DNA of 64,000 nt from Thermoanaerobaculia bacterium (GCA_036274895.1 DASUEU010000051.1:142407-206406); one strand, 5' to 3'; positions 11,700-56,074 are shown, counted from the stretch's first letter. Numbers and translations are program-made. The notes: generated from the letters alone by a model not told the origin.

Positions 11700-13265
11700 T
11701 TATGACGTGACCAGGGAGATCCCCGCCTCCTCGCGACAGTCGAACCACGCCCCCAGCAAGGGGCCACGAACCTTCAGCTCCTTCTTCCTGACTTTGTGCG
11801 TGGGAGTCATCGGCAGCTCCTCGCAGAGCTCGAGAAAACGCGGCACCTTGAACGGCGCCAGCGAGTCGGCGCACCAGCTGCGCAGCTGGGTGGCCGAGAC
11901 CTGCCAGCCCGGGCGCAACACCAGATAGGCCTTGATCTCCTCACCGCCGAGGTCGTCCGCCACACCGACCACCGCGGCCAGCGCCACCGCGGGATGGCGG
12001 GCGAGCACCCCTTCCACCTCCGAGGCGGCGACGTTCTCCCCCCGCCGGCGCACCACGTCCTTGTCGCGACCCAGGAAGTAGAACCAGCCTTCCTCGTCGC
12101 CATAGCCGGAATCGCCGGTGCGGAACCAGTCACCGACGAAGACGCTGGCGGTCAGGGCCGGATCGCCCTCGTAACCGTCCATCATGGCGGCGTTGCGCTC
12201 GACCTGGATCTCCCCCACCTCGCCGGCCGGCAGGCTCCGGCCAAGGTCGTCGGCGATGCGCACCCGGGCGTGCTCCAAGGCCCTGCCGATCGAGCCCCGG
12301 CGGCCCAGGGCGAGGGAGTTGCACAGCACGGTGCTGGTCTCGGTCAGGCCATAACCCTCGACCACCGGCACGGCGAAACGGCGGGAGAACTCCTCCGCCA
12401 CGTCGGGACGGGCACCGCCGCCGTAGACCGCCCGCAGGGTGTGCTCGCGCTCTCCGGGCACCGGCGAGTGCTTGCAGAGCACGGCGAGCATCTCGCCGAT
12501 GTAGCGCACCAGGGTCGCCCGCGTCTCGGCCACCTGGCGCCAGAAGTCGCTGCCGCGGAAGCGCTCCACCACGGCGATCGAGGCCCCGGCGGCGAGCGCG
12601 CTGGCCGCGAAGGCCTGGCCAGCCAGGTGGAAGAGAGGCAGGCAGCCGAAGAAGCGGTCCTCGGGCGTCACCGCCATGAACCGCCCGAAGGCGAGGGCGG
12701 GTAGCACGAAGCTGCTGTGGGTCATGCGCACGCCCTTGGGCGCGCCGGTGGTGCCCGAGGTGAACAGCAACGAGACCAGCTGCCCCGGCGCCGGCCGGGC
12801 CAGGCTGCGGGGCACTCCCCCAACCAGCTGGGACCAGGACAGGGCTTGGGGCGGCGGCTCGCCGTCGATCACCGCTCGCCACGGCAGGGCGGCCGCCTCC
12901 TCGAGCGCGGAGCCATGGGCCTGGTCGGTCACCAGGCCACAGGCGCCGGCGCGAGCGAGCAGGACGCGCACCTCGGGCAGGGTCGAGTCCGGGTGCATGG
13001 GCACCATCGCCGCCCCCAACCGTGCCAGGGCCAGCCAGAGGGTCAGCATCTCGGGCCGGCTGGGCAGCAGCACCGCCACTCGGCTGCCCGCGCCCACGCC
13101 CAGCTCGGCCAGCGAGCCGGCGAGACGGTCCACTTCCGACCCGATCTCGCCGAAGGTCCGGCCGGCAGGACCGCCGAGCAGGAAGGGGCGCTGCTCGAAG
13201 CGCTCGAGGGAGCGGTCGAGCAGGTCGGCGAGGTTGAGGGTCAGGGCGTGCTCGAGATCGGTCAT
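11700..13265 (-). CDS. AMP-dependent synthetase/ligase (acyl-CoA ligase-like)
   Basis: 521 aa, ATG 13265 in an ATGA overlap with the NRPS stop. LLFTSGTTGAPKG, YGLTETS, WFRTGD, PMTPTHKVRKKEL. Confidence 0.85.
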   Translation of the reverse strand: MTDLEHALTLNLADLLDRSLERFEQRPFLLGGPAGRTFGEIGSEVDRLAGSLAELGVGAGSRVAVLLPSRPEMLTLWLALARLGAAMVPMHPDSTLPEVRVLLARAGACGLVTDQAHGSALEEAAALPWRAVIDGEPPPQALSWSQLVGGVPRSLARPAPGQLVSLLFTSGTTGAPKGVRMTHSSFVLPALAFGRFMAVTPEDRFFGCLPLFHLAGQAFAASALAAGASIAVVERFRGSDFWRQVAETRATLVRYIGEMLAVLCKHSPVPGEREHTLRAVYGGGARPDVAEEFSRRFAVPVVEGYGLTETSTVLCNSLALGRRGSIGRALEHARVRIADDLGRSLPAGEVGEIQVERNAAMMDGYEGDPALTASVFVGDWFRTGDSGYGDEEGWFYFLGRDKDVVRRRGENVAASEVEGVLARHPAVALAAVVGVADDLGGEEIKAYLVLRPGWQVSATQLRSWCADSLAPFKVPRFLELCEELPMTPTHKVRKKELKVRGPLLGAWFDCREEAGISLVTS

Positions 13266-55034: not shown

Positions 55035-56074
55035 GGTGCACCCAGCTCCCCGGTCTGCAGGTCTCGGCCCGGGACCGTCAGGGGCCGCGCCGCGGCTTGA
55101 CGATGCCGCCACTTCAGCTCTCGGCCGATGCGCCCCCCTTCCTGGAGGAAGCTCACCAGTCGCCGGCTCAGGTTGCGCAGGGCGGAGTCGGACTCCGGCA
55201 GCCGGGAGCTCTTGGTCGAGCCCAACCAGCGCAGGACACCACCCAACCAGGCGCCACCACTGCCCATCACACAGAGCTCGACGCTCGGATGGTGTGCCAT
55301 CAGCTCGCCCATGGCGCGAGAGCGCTCGAGCCGGGGGCGGTCCGCCAGAACGAACAGGCGGTTACCGTTCACCTGGTGCGCGAGTAGCTCCTTGAGCAGG
55401 GCCACCAGCTCTCGGCTGCTCGCTCGCCCTGGGGATTGCCGACCGGAGCCGGGGAGTGGGGCGCAGAGCAGGCCGTAGAGATCGAGAGCACCTGGTCGCA
55501 GGGGTCTCAGCGATGAGCCGTTGCCAGACTCTGGTAGCTCCTCGCGGAACACGGCGCAGCGCAGATCGGACTTGAGGTAGAGACCCACCAAGTCGAGCTC
55601 GCTGGCAGCAGGGGCTGGCACTTCGGAGACCGTCGACTTGCCGAGCGGTTGGCTCGGCATCACCCGCTTCTGCCAGGCCCTGGCCACCGTCATGTGCGAA
55701 AGACCGAGCTCCTGGGCGAGCGTCCTCGTGCTCCATCGCTTACGCCCATCGGCGAGCCGGTCGCTCATCGCCGAGAGGATCTTCTGCTCGCTGACGCCGT
55801 GATCGAAGCGGATGATGCGGCCGCGATGGCGCGTGTAGAGGCCCGCCAGCCGTTCTTTGACGAAGCGCTTTTTCCAGCGGCTGGCAAACGCAAAGCTGCA
55901 ACCCAGCGCTTCGCGGATCTCTCGGTAGGTCCTGCCCTCGTCGAGAAGCAAGAGGAGACGAGCTACCTTGACCTCACTGGCGGAGACCTTCGAGCTCGAC
56001 GCAGTTCGCTCGAGCTCTTCCCTTTCGTGGGCCGTCAATCTGACATGAGCAAGACGCATGGCTTCCAGCTCCAT
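55031..56074 (-). CDS. IS630-family transposase-like protein, probably catalytically dead (domesticated or decaying)
   Basis: N-terminal double HTH organisation typical of IS630 transposases (LTAHEREELERTASSSKVSASEVKVARLLLLLDEGRTYREIREALGCSFAFASRWKKRF...WSTRTLAQELGLSHMTVARAWQK...LVGLYL). The DDE region is shortened and reads FREEL / LADRP / VLRWL where I expect VDEKS / LDNYxxH / VERWF. The start is uncertain: ATG 56074 (MELEAM) is chosen; ATG 56059 and GTG 56134 are alternatives. GC looks visibly lower than the neighbours by eye. Confidence 0.55.
   Translation of the reverse strand: MELEAMRLAHVRLTAHEREELERTASSSKVSASEVKVARLLLLLDEGRTYREIREALGCSFAFASRWKKRFVKERLAGLYTRHRGRIIRFDHGVSEQKILSAMSDRLADGRKRWSTRTLAQELGLSHMTVARAWQKRVMPSQPLGKSTVSEVPAPAASELDLVGLYLKSDLRCAVFREELPESGNGSSLRPLRPGALDLYGLLCAPLPGSGRQSPGRASSRELVALLKELLAHQVNGNRLFVLADRPRLERSRAMGELMAHHPSVELCVMGSGGAWLGGVLRWLGSTKSSRLPESDSALRNLSRRLVSFLQEGGRIGRELKWRHRQAAARPLTVPGRDLQTGELGAP

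What the first reader, a model, noticed from the sequence alone, without database searches (positions are those of the whole stretch)
11700..56074. 39-kb three-gene NRPS-PKS assembly line predicted to make an acylated nonapeptide with two statine-type units
Seen in sequence: three translationally coupled minus-strand genes (13,055 aa in total) read Cs-A-T-C-A-T-C-A-T-KS-AT-KR-ACP | C-A-T-C-A-T-C-A-T-KS-AT-KR-ACP | C-A-T-C-A-T-C-A-T-TE. The KS Cys-His-His residues, AT GHSxG, KR Rossmann motif and Tyr, all carrier Ser motifs and TE GxSxG are intact. There are no DH, ER, E, MT, Cy or Ox domains, and no MbtH or PPTase gene in the window. Established knowledge: an NRPS module followed by KS-AT-KR-ACP extends the peptidyl thioester by C2 and reduces the ketone. 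That yields a gamma-amino-beta-hydroxy acid, which is the statine/isostatine logic I recall for didemnin-type lines. Inference: residues 3 and 6 become statine-type units in an N-acylated 9-residue chain released by the TE. My hand alignment to GrsA-PheA gives these specificity codes. Modules 3-8: D-A-W-Y-I-G-T-V-L-K, closest from memory to the Leu-type codes DAWFLGNVVK and DAWLYGAVMK. Module 2: DLFNNALTYK, recalled as Ala-type. Module 1: DLFNAALTYK. Module 9: DALVIGAILK, nearest recalled code Tyr-type DALVTGAVVK. If the repeated residue is Leu, units 3 and 6 would have the statine skeleton (stereochemistry not predicted), and the product would be an extended pepstatin-like aspartic-protease-inhibitor scaffold. 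I do not recognise this architecture as a described cluster, but I cannot search databases.
Basis: partly seen in the sequence, partly recalled or inferred. Interest (0 to 1): 0.85.

Follow-up and report, generated by a model that had tools for sequence, protein, structure and literature searches.

The report
Orphan acidobacterial NRPS-PKS peptide gene cluster
This is a real, intact 39-kb assembly-line gene cluster from an uncultured Thermoanaerobaculia (Acidobacteriota) bacterium that should build a nine-amino-acid peptide with two ketide-extended, statine-like residues; it is a new but fairly ordinary example of a well-known enzyme class, and its product has not been identified.

Summary
Three translationally coupled minus-strand genes (52430-38091, 38094-23770, 23770-13262; 4779+4774+3502 = 13,055 aa) encode C-A-T x3-KS-AT-KR-T | C-A-T x3-KS-AT-KR-T | C-A-T x3-TE. 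Catalytic motifs are intact, and there are no E, MT, DH, ER or Cy domains.

- The "starter" C domain is a starter by position only. It does not resemble solved starter C domains.
- Both AT domains are non-canonical (FabD Q11->F/L, Q63->L, GHSNG, RSPH/RAYH instead of HAFH). A plain malonyl (C2) extension, and therefore "statine", is not secure.
- The repeated code DAWYIGTVLK is only 6/10 identical to the Leu code of McyB.
- Pepstatin itself is made by a different, KR-less route.

The closest relatives are Thermoanaerobaculia MAGs (82-89% nt). One of them carries one module fewer. No named protein exceeds 53% identity.

Verdict: a new member of a known kind, of moderate interest.

The parts
38091..52430 (-). 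g1, 4779 aa: C1-A1-T, C2-A2-T, C3-A3-T, KS-AT-KR-T. Approximate module cuts: m1 49161-52430, m2 45951-49160, m3 42651-45950, PKS module 1 38094-42650.
   Evidence: ORF. Pfam on each module piece. Motifs. Codes DLFNAALTYK, DLFNNALTYK, DAWYIGTVLK. C1 starts at residue 16 with no docking extension.
23770..38094 (-). g2, 4774 aa: C4-A4-T, C5-A5-T, C6-A6-T, KS-AT-KR-T. Approximate module cuts: m4 34675-38094, m5 31495-34674, m6 28300-31494, PKS module 2 23773-28299. Its start overlaps the g1 stop codon (ATGA).
   Evidence: All three codes are DAWYIGTVLK. About 50 aa precede C4 at the N-terminus, consistent with a docking region.
13262..23770 (-). g3, 3502 aa: C7-A7-T, C8-A8-T, C9-A9-T, TE. Approximate module cuts: m7 20336-23770, m8 17126-20335, m9 13871-17125, TE 13265-13870. 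Its start overlaps the g2 stop codon by one base.
   Evidence: Codes DAWYIGTVLK x2 and DALVIGAILK. TE has GWSFG, Asp and His.
52414..54111 (-). ABC exporter (fused permease and ATPase), 565 aa. It overlaps the g1 start by 17 nt.
   Evidence: Pfam ABC_membrane and ABC_tran. NCBIfam TIGR01194 'cyclic peptide export ABC transporter', 439 bits against a cut-off of 286.
54108..55034 (-). GNAT-superfamily acyltransferase-like protein, 308 aa. It is translationally coupled to the ABC gene. Its role is unknown; candidates are N-acylation or self-protection.
   Evidence: Only weak Pfam GNAT hits (E about 0.005). 218 homologues, many named 'predicted GNAT superfamily acetyltransferase' and carrying PF00583/PF13508. 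The window's own protein is called as 308 aa (P0241).
55031..56059 (-). Helix-turn-helix protein (HTH_23/28/29/32), about 342 aa. It overlaps the GNAT start. It may be a regulator or a domesticated transposase N-terminus.
   Evidence: Pfam. A 342-aa orthologue sits at the same position in three related contigs. GC3 is 0.78, lower than its neighbours.
11700..13265 (-). Stand-alone acyl-CoA ligase-like adenylating enzyme, 521 aa, with an ATGA overlap onto the g3 stop. It is a candidate supplier of the acyl starter, but may instead belong to the downstream cassette.
   Evidence: Pfam AMP-binding. The best NCBIfam models are acyl-CoA ligases, all below their cut-offs. 67% identical to the orthologue after the TE in MAG040. 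51% identical to the first gene of an NRPS-free cassette in L081.
9191..11656 (-). Duplicated MacB_PCD/FtsX permease, 821 aa, 44 nt downstream of the ligase. Membership of the cluster is uncertain.
   Evidence: Pfam finds two MacB_PCD and two FtsX stretches. An 86% identical gene sits at the same position in MAG040.

Best explanation
This is a functional, collinear hybrid NRPS/type I PKS assembly line from an uncultured Thermoanaerobaculia bacterium.

Shown:
- Eleven modules lie in three coupled genes, with every catalytic and carrier motif intact.
- All domain classes tested are under purifying selection.

Inferred mechanism:
1. The N-terminal C1 domain joins an acyl donor to residue 1. The donor's identity is unknown. 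It is possibly an acyl-CoA from the adjacent ligase.
2. Modules 1-2 add two small residues.
3. Module 3 adds residue X (code DAWYIGTVLK; probably a Leu-like hydrophobic amino acid).
4. KS1 takes over the peptidyl thioester and condenses it with a carboxylated extender. AT1 has loaded that extender onto a PCP-like carrier. KR1 then reduces the ketone, giving a gamma-amino-beta-hydroxy unit.
5. C4 continues with X-X-X. The second PKS module repeats the extension and reduction on the sixth residue.
6. Modules 7-9 add X, X and a Tyr-like residue.
7. The TE releases the chain, either linear or cyclised. The TIGR01194-type ABC transporter exports it.

No epimerisation function was detected, so an all-L peptide is expected. 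The backbone is therefore acyl(?)-a1-a2-[X+ketide]-X-X-[X+ketide]-X-X-a9. The two ketide units are statine-like only if the unusual ATs load malonate.
For: - Architecture and motifs.
- Codes.
- The A3-A8 pocket region is closest to McyB 8hlk (86 bits, against 51 for the next hit). The code read from that alignment is DAWFLGNVVK.
- The second His is present in all nine C domains. C5-type domains match Txo1/Txo2 C domains (which I recall to be LCL-type) at 1e-100, and there is no second N-terminal His motif.
- g2 and g3 carry about 50-aa N-terminal extensions. g1 does not, which fits g1 being the first protein.
- dN/dS against the MAG040 orthologues: KS 0.18, AT 0.25, KR 0.36, carrier 0.33, C1 0.22.
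- The exporter family scores above its cut-off.
- The NRPS-then-KS-AT-KR logic for 3-OH-4-NH2 units is stated in PMC12081711.
Against: - No product is known, so every chemical step is inferred.
- Both ATs lack the two conserved glutamines (FabD Q11, Q63). They carry GHSNG and RSPH/RAYH in place of the HAFH or YASH motifs. The extender may therefore not be malonyl.
- C1 is not similar to solved starter C domains.
- The KR has neither the LDD nor the W motif, so the stereochemistry is open.
- The ligase next to the TE has a 51% identical counterpart heading an NRPS-free cassette.
- The PPTase, and any MbtH partner, must be encoded elsewhere.
Confidence: 0.6

Rival explanations
1. The architecture is the same, but the divergent ATs load an extender other than malonyl-CoA, for example methylmalonyl-, hydroxymalonyl- or another substituted malonyl-CoA or -ACP. 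Units 3 and 6 would then be alpha-substituted gamma-amino-beta-hydroxy acids rather than statine-type.
For: - Compared with FabD, five ATs of this small clade share Q11->L/F, Q63->L, L93->N and HAFH->[RQ]AYH/RSPH, while keeping S92, R117 and H201. The five are the two in the window, MAG040, P0044 and P0046.
- Close canonical relatives have GQGAQ, TQPAL, GHSIGE and HAFH.
- GHSNGE occurs in 3 of about 490 ATs in the 148 top representative proteins scanned (of 150 listed), and one of the three is the window's own.
- The best solved match is ZmaA AT (4qbu, 233 bits). I recall this enzyme as hydroxymalonyl-ACP specific.
Against: - Tyr in place of Phe in xAYH is conservative and should still crowd an alpha-substituent.
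- ZmaA is only 10-30 bits ahead of AT domains from other modular PKSs such as CurL.
- No FkbH-type, ccr-type or free ACP gene for special extenders was found in the window.
Confidence: 0.22
2. The N-terminus is not fatty-acylated. C1 might use a short acyl group, or be a non-acylating remnant that leaves a free amine. Alternatively, acylation could be done by the adjacent GNAT-like protein.
For: - C1 scores 29-43 bits against solved starter C domains and 124-170 bits against internal (non-starter) C domains.
- Its motif is HHLTVDF rather than HHxxxDG.
- A GNAT-like gene is translationally coupled upstream.
- The ligase may belong to another cassette.
Against: - C1 keeps both His residues and the Asp.
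- It is under purifying selection (dN/dS 0.22).
- It sits at the very N-terminus of the first protein, which is the usual place for lipoinitiation.
- The ligase is coupled to g3 by an ATGA overlap in the window, and the same gene order holds in MAG040.
Confidence: 0.3
3. The number of modules is an assembly artefact caused by repeated modules in a metagenome-derived contig.
For: - Modules 4-8 are 72-84% identical at the DNA level.
- A 14.4-kb block is tandemly duplicated (15368-30304 against 29734-44646, 73.6% identity).
- Both MAG040 contigs that carry NRPS genes have an end lying inside an NRPS gene, and the MAG040 g3 has two modules instead of three.
Against: - The longest exact repeat is only about 100 nt.
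- All three ORFs are uninterrupted across 39 kb.
- Junctions between modules are in frame with normal linkers.
- The source contig is reported as 236,975 bp.
Confidence: 0.05
4. The downstream genes (ALDH, DoeA-like hydrolase, DegT aminotransferase, split transketolase, racemase-like proteins, Fe-ADH) belong to the cluster. They would make the unknown residue X or the unusual extender.
For: - They lie on the same strand with short gaps, running from g3 down to the window start.
- The A code for X and the AT signature are both unassigned.
Against: - The same cassette, in the same order at 51-78% aa identity, occurs without any NRPS in contig L081.
- The DegT family is widespread at 60-73% identity.
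- The best family matches have a catabolic flavour: ectoine hydrolase-like and succinic semialdehyde dehydrogenase-like, all below their cut-offs.
- Related loci with the same A and AT signatures (L001, L002) show none of these genes within the sequence held for those loci.
Confidence: 0.1

Closest known systems
Didemnin-type NRPS/PKS pairs that form statine-like (3-OH-4-NH2) residues (didemnin, thalassospiramide, hapalosin, burkholdac, nosperin BGCs, as listed in PMC12081711)
   Same: An A-T module is followed directly by KS-AT-KR-carrier and then a C domain. On paper this gives a gamma-amino-beta-hydroxy acid inside a peptide.
   Different: - Here the unit occurs twice, in a symmetric 3+1 / 3+1 / 3 layout.
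- The carrier after the KR is PCP-like (GGHSL).
- The AT lacks the malonyl signature.
- The host is an uncultured acidobacterium.
- No protein-level relationship closer than 53% to any named protein was found.
Pepstatin (pep) pathway of Streptomyces (PMC12081711)
   Same: The predicted product class is similar: an N-acyl peptide with two statine-type residues.
   Different: Pepstatin uses discrete, iteratively acting NRPS and PKS proteins, a KS-AT-ACP module without a KR, and post-assembly reduction by the F420H2-dependent PepI. The window has integrated KR domains, strict collinearity and no PepI-like gene.
ZmaA (zwittermicin A hybrid NRPS/PKS); AT domain structure 4qbu
   Same: It is the best solved-structure match to the window's AT (233 bits), and it comes from a hybrid NRPS-PKS protein.
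   Different: Its active-site motif is GYSFGE/GAAH, and it keeps GNGSQ and SQP (alignment). The window has GHSNGE/RAYH with both glutamines replaced. The score advantage over the next hits is small, so no substrate can be transferred by homology.
Lipoinitiation by starter C domains (surfactin SrfA-A, CDA, rhizomide RzmA)
   Same: A C domain sits at the extreme N-terminus of the first synthetase with no loading module in front of it.
   Different: C1 is much closer in sequence to internal (non-starter) C domains than to these solved starter domains.
McyB first adenylation domain (8hlk)
   Same: It is the closest solved A domain to A3-A8 (408 bits over the whole domain, 86 bits over the pocket region). 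Pocket positions D235, A236, W239, G301, V330 and K517 are shared.
   Different: Four pocket positions differ: F->Y, L->I, N->T, V->L.

Membership tests
Hybrid modular NRPS / cis-AT type I PKS assembly line | C, A and T domains in repeating order, with intact core motifs | tested here: met
   Pfam finds one C, one A (plus A_C) and one PP-binding per module, at E 1e-61 to 1e-104. All nine C domains keep HHxxxD. A3, A8 and A10 motifs and the carrier Ser are present.
Hybrid modular NRPS / cis-AT type I PKS assembly line | KS with Cys-His-His, an in-line AT with Ser-His, and a carrier domain | tested here: met
   FabD-numbered alignment.
Hybrid modular NRPS / cis-AT type I PKS assembly line | A terminal release domain | tested here: met
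   Pfam Thioesterase, E 2e-24. GWSFG, Asp and His are present.
Statine-type unit formation by an NRPS module plus a KR-containing PKS module | Domain order A-T-KS-AT-KR-carrier followed by a downstream C domain | tested here: met
   The order occurs twice, at the ends of g1 and g2. C4 and C7 follow in the next protein.
Statine-type unit formation by an NRPS module plus a KR-containing PKS module | AT with the malonyl-CoA signature (GQGxQ, GHS[ILV]G, HAFH), so that the added unit is an unsubstituted C2 | tested here: not met
   The ATs read GFGPHH/GLGPEY, GHSNGE and RSPH/RAYH, with FabD Q11 and Q63 replaced.
Statine-type unit formation by an NRPS module plus a KR-containing PKS module | KR with an NADPH-binding site and the catalytic Lys, Ser, Tyr and Asn | tested here: met
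   TGGLxxLG, PK(L/V)EG, YSS/YGS and DY(S/A)AAN are present. Pfam KR E 1e-44 to 1e-45. The stereochemical type cannot be assigned because neither LDD nor W is present.
Statine-type unit formation by an NRPS module plus a KR-containing PKS module | The upstream A domain activates Leu (for statine proper) | tested here: inconclusive
   DAWYIGTVLK against DAWFLGNVVK of McyB 8hlk gives 6 of 10 identical positions, with the remaining four conservative.
Starter-C (Cs) lipoinitiation | C domain at the N-terminus of the first synthetase | tested here: met
   C1 spans residues 16-469 of g1. No longer ORF is possible upstream.
Starter-C (Cs) lipoinitiation | Sequence affinity to the starter-C clade | tested here: not met
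   C1 scores 29-43 bits against 4jn3, 8f7f and 7c1h. It scores 124-170 bits against internal (non-starter) C domains. This is a PDB-only comparison, not a full phylogeny.
Starter-C (Cs) lipoinitiation | A dedicated supply of the acyl donor | tested here: inconclusive
   An acyl-CoA ligase-like gene is coupled to g3. However, a 51% identical homologue heads an NRPS-free cassette.
Pepstatin (pep) type pathway | Discrete NRPS and PKS proteins, a KR-less PKS and the F420H2-dependent reductase PepI | tested here: not met
   The window has integrated KR domains and multimodular proteins. No F420-dependent or luciferase-like oxidoreductase appears among the Pfam hits for the window ORFs. Family features are taken from PMC12081711.

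The most novel reading that the evidence does not exclude
The unit A(DAWYIG-type)-T-KS-AT(GHSNG, both active-site glutamines lost)-KR-PCP-like carrier may be a lineage-specific cassette of Thermoanaerobaculia. It would install a gamma-amino acid using a non-malonyl extender, giving a previously undescribed residue type twice in one lipopeptide. The remodelled AT would then be a new extender-unit specificity class.
Probability: 0.2. Interest if true: 0.6.

Novelty: new member of a known kind. Interest (0 to 1): 0.4.

Why it matters
Acidobacteriota, including Thermoanaerobaculia, are now recognised as rich but chemically untapped sources of biosynthetic genes (PMC13083261). I found no report of an NRPS-PKS product from Thermoanaerobaculia. 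This cluster is complete, compact and collinear, so it is a reasonable target for synthesis-from-prediction or heterologous expression. If the product really carries two statine-like residues, it would be worth testing as a protease inhibitor. The KR-dependent route to such residues has, according to PMC12081711, never been verified experimentally, and this cluster could serve as a test case. The unusual AT active site is the one feature that could teach something new about extender-unit selection. Otherwise this is one more orphan cluster among many.

Tried and rejected
- Exact-sequence look-ups of two of the window's proteins returned nothing, so the source record could not be named. The contig length of 236,975 bp comes only from the homologue tables.
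- Full-text searches for the specificity codes gave no relevant hit, so the Ala, Leu and Tyr labels rest on memory and on the McyB alignment.
- The all-representative HMMER search with the AT domain was dominated by multi-AT giants. It gave only a rough rarity figure for GHSNGE.
- Typing the KR through PDB hits was inconclusive. The best hit is PksJ 4j1q, with no LDD or W motif.
- I considered that the downstream transketolase, aminotransferase and ALDH genes supply residue X or the extender. I judged this unlikely because the cassette exists without an NRPS in L081.
- I considered recent horizontal transfer because total GC is higher in the NRPS genes. I rejected it: GC3 is the same as in the flanks, and the difference lies in GC1 and amino-acid composition.
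- I considered dual E/C or epimerising C domains. No second N-terminal His motif is present, and I recall the best PDB matches (Txo1/Txo2, TycC, FscG-type PCP-C) as LCL-type.
- Synteny with MAG040 and two further contigs extends into HtpG and M20 genes. At this evolutionary distance it therefore says nothing about cluster boundaries.
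Full report
**Observation.** The window has about 70% GC, rising to 73-77% between 12 and 52 kb. Three very long minus-strand ORFs fill 13262-52430. The g2 start codon at 38094 overlaps the g1 stop as ATGA. The g3 start codon at 23770 shares one base with the g2 stop (TGATG).

I cut the proteins into 12 module-sized pieces and scanned them against Pfam. Every NRPS piece gave exactly one Condensation, one AMP-binding, one AMP-binding_C and one PP-binding hit (E 1e-61 to 1e-104). 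The two PKS pieces gave ketoacyl-synt N and C, Acyl_transf_1, KR and PP-binding. The last 200 aa gave Thioesterase. No other enzymatic family appeared, so DH, ER, MT, E, Cy and Ox domains are absent.

**Active sites.**
- KS: SACST/TACST, HGTGT and GHLD.
- KR: TGGLxxLG, a PK(L/V)EG lysine, and YSS...DY(S/A)AAN.
- Carriers: all 11 have GGHS[LM].
- TE: GWSFG with Asp and His.
- The carrier after each KR is PCP-like, including the 'YVAPR...LGGHSL' linker that normally follows an A domain.
- The KR has neither the LDD nor the W motif. Its best solved match is PksJ 4j1q, so the hydroxyl configuration cannot be predicted.

**Adenylation codes.** The PheA sequence came from memory, but it returns the expected DAWTIAAICK as a check. 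The closest solved A domain to A4 is the McyB fragment 8hlk: 408 bits for the whole domain and 86 bits for the pocket region, against 51 for the next hit. Reading the code from that alignment gives DAWFLGNVVK, which I recall as the canonical Leu code. The repeated code therefore shares 6 of 10 positions with a Leu code, and the four differences are conservative (F/Y, L/I, N/T, V/L). 'Leu-like hydrophobic' is a fair guess but not a confident call. Literature searches for any of the codes returned nothing relevant.

**Condensation domains.** All nine keep the second histidine.
- C4 and C7 receive the chain from the PKS carriers. They are 55% identical to each other and differ from the rest.
- C5, C6, C8 and C9 form a group (HHxVTD[AV]W) whose best solved matches are the Txo1/Txo2 C domains at 1e-100.
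- No E domain and no second N-terminal His motif are present, so no epimerisation is predicted.
- C1 (HHLTVDF) starts at residue 16 of g1. By contrast, g2 and g3 have about 50-aa N-terminal extensions before their C domains, which fits g1 being the first protein.
- C1 scores 124-170 bits against internal (non-starter) C domains but only 29-43 bits against the solved starter C domains of RzmA, SrfA-A and CDA. It is a starter by position, not by family.

**The AT domains are the unexpected part.** Both read GHSNGE. They have RSPH (module 1) or RAYH (module 2) where HAFH or YASH is expected, and GFGPHH/GLGPEY where GQGxQ is expected. I aligned them to E. coli FabD. The FabD sequence came from memory but was verified at Q11, Q63, S92, R117, H201 and Q250. 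The window's two ATs, the MAG040 orthologue and the two nearest other relatives (P0044, P0046) all show the following:
- Q11 replaced by L or F.
- Q63 replaced by L.
- L93 replaced by N.
- S92, R117 and H201 kept.

More distant relatives are fully canonical (GQGAQ, TQPAL, GHSIGE, HAFH). Among 81 fetched loci the signature occurs only in these lineages. Each time it follows an A domain coded DAWYIG[TH]V[LT]K. GHSNGE appears in 3 of about 490 ATs in the 148 best-scoring representative proteins scanned (of 150 listed), and one of the three is the window's own. The best solved match is ZmaA AT (4qbu, 233 bits), only slightly ahead of AT domains from other modular PKSs such as CurL. dN/dS against MAG040 is 0.25 for the AT, similar to the KS (0.18), the KR (0.36) and C1 (0.22), so the AT is under constraint and presumably active. 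Which extender it loads is open.

**Origin and relatives.** The window's large proteins have no close match in the protein collection. The best hits to PKS module 2 are 52-53% identical, unnamed, and have the architecture C-A-T-KS-AT-KR-T. They come from Thermoanaerobaculia-type MAG contigs. The genome scan found an 89% identical match in 'MAG: Thermoanaerobaculia bacterium isolate MAG040' (L003).
- That contig is collinear with window 32133-21905 at 86-89% nt identity. It continues with a g3 orthologue of only 2460 aa (two modules, DAWYIGTVLK and DALVLAAVLK, plus TE). The ligase (67% aa) and the duplicated permease (86% aa) follow.
- A second MAG040 contig (L082) is collinear with window 58136-46147 at 81.6% nt. 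It carries M20 peptidase, HTH, GNAT, ABC and g1 modules 1-2 (DLLNAALTYK, DLFNNALTYK).
- The same 5' arrangement occurs in another MAG and in a Logan assembly.

The cluster is thus native to a small Thermoanaerobaculia lineage and varies in module number between relatives. Within the window, a 14.4-kb block (15368-30304) is an old tandem duplicate of 29734-44646 (73.6% nt). Modules 4-6 are younger duplicates (84%). The longest exact repeat is about 100 nt, so mis-assembly is unlikely. GC3 is the same inside and outside the NRPS genes, which argues against recent import.

**Neighbours.**
- *Upstream, all translationally coupled:* an HTH protein; a GNAT-superfamily protein (weak Pfam hits, but a clear homologue family); and a TIGR01194 'cyclic peptide export' ABC transporter scoring above its cut-off.
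- *Downstream:* an acyl-CoA ligase-like gene overlapping the g3 stop, followed by a duplicated MacB_PCD/FtsX permease.
- *Further downstream:* ALDH, a DoeA-like M24 hydrolase, a DegT aminotransferase, a split transketolase, two racemase-like genes, an Fe-ADH and a second transketolase C-subunit-like gene.

This last set recurs in the same order at 51-78% aa identity in a metagenomic contig (L081). There it has no NRPS, and it begins with a homologous ligase. I therefore treat it as a separate cassette. The ligase may or may not serve the NRPS.

No MbtH or PPTase gene is in the window.

**Mechanism.** The mechanism set out under 'best explanation' follows from collinearity. PMC12081711 states that the KR-containing NRPS-PKS pair is the accepted, but experimentally unverified, route to 3-OH-4-NH2 residues in didemnin and related compounds. 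It also shows that pepstatin itself is made differently, by a KR-less PKS plus the F420H2-dependent PepI. The window fits the former logic and fails the defining features of the latter.

**Verdict.** The remodelled AT is the only feature that might prove to be a new variant.

Noticed in passing
window 1-9092 (minus strand); L081 4232-18095: A conserved cassette of about 12 kb: ALDH, DoeA-like M24 hydrolase, DegT aminotransferase, split transketolase, two PRK07475 racemase-like genes, Fe-ADH, and a second TK-C-like gene running off the window start. It recurs in the same order at 51-78% aa identity in a JGI contig without any NRPS. There it is headed by an acyl-CoA ligase plus a tRNA-synt_1_2-domain protein. 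Its function is unknown.
   Followed up: partly
window 40011-41138 and 25660-26787 (AT domains): The AT active site is remodelled: FabD Q11->F/L, Q63->L, L93->N, HAFH->RSPH/RAYH, with Ser, Arg and His kept. The same pattern is found only in a handful of Thermoanaerobaculia-type relatives, always after an A domain coded DAWYIG[TH]V[LT]K. The substrate is unknown.
   Followed up: partly
L003 8532-15914 (MAG040) against window 13262-23770: The closest relative's third synthetase has two modules instead of three, and its final code is different (DALVLAAVLK). The lineage therefore makes at least two peptide lengths.
   Followed up: partly
window 15368-30304 against 29734-44646; also 28478-32942 against 31679-36125: There is an ancient tandem duplication of a whole 14.4-kb tri-module-plus-PKS block (73.6% nt), and younger single-module duplications (84% nt). 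The longest exact repeat is about 100 nt.
   Followed up: yes
window about 36100-36250, 21800-21950 and 15300-15450 (A4, A7, A9, between motifs A2 and A3): Three A domains carry a similar Pro/Glu/Arg-rich insertion (PEVPGT...HPEERSDEGS). The other A domains of the same code lack it or have a shorter version. Coordinates are approximate.
   Followed up: no
window 23773-24100 and 38094-38420 (carriers after the KR): The carrier domains of both PKS modules look like NRPS PCPs (GGHSL with an A-T-type linker 'YVAPR') rather than PKS ACPs.
   Followed up: no
window 55031-56134: An HTH_23/28/29/32 protein resembles a transposase N-terminus, but it is conserved and translationally coupled to the GNAT gene in three related contigs. 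Its GC3 (0.78) is lower than that of its neighbours.
   Followed up: partly
window 62620-63948 (+): A 442-aa ORF with coding-like GC3 (0.92) has no Pfam or NCBIfam match.
   Followed up: no
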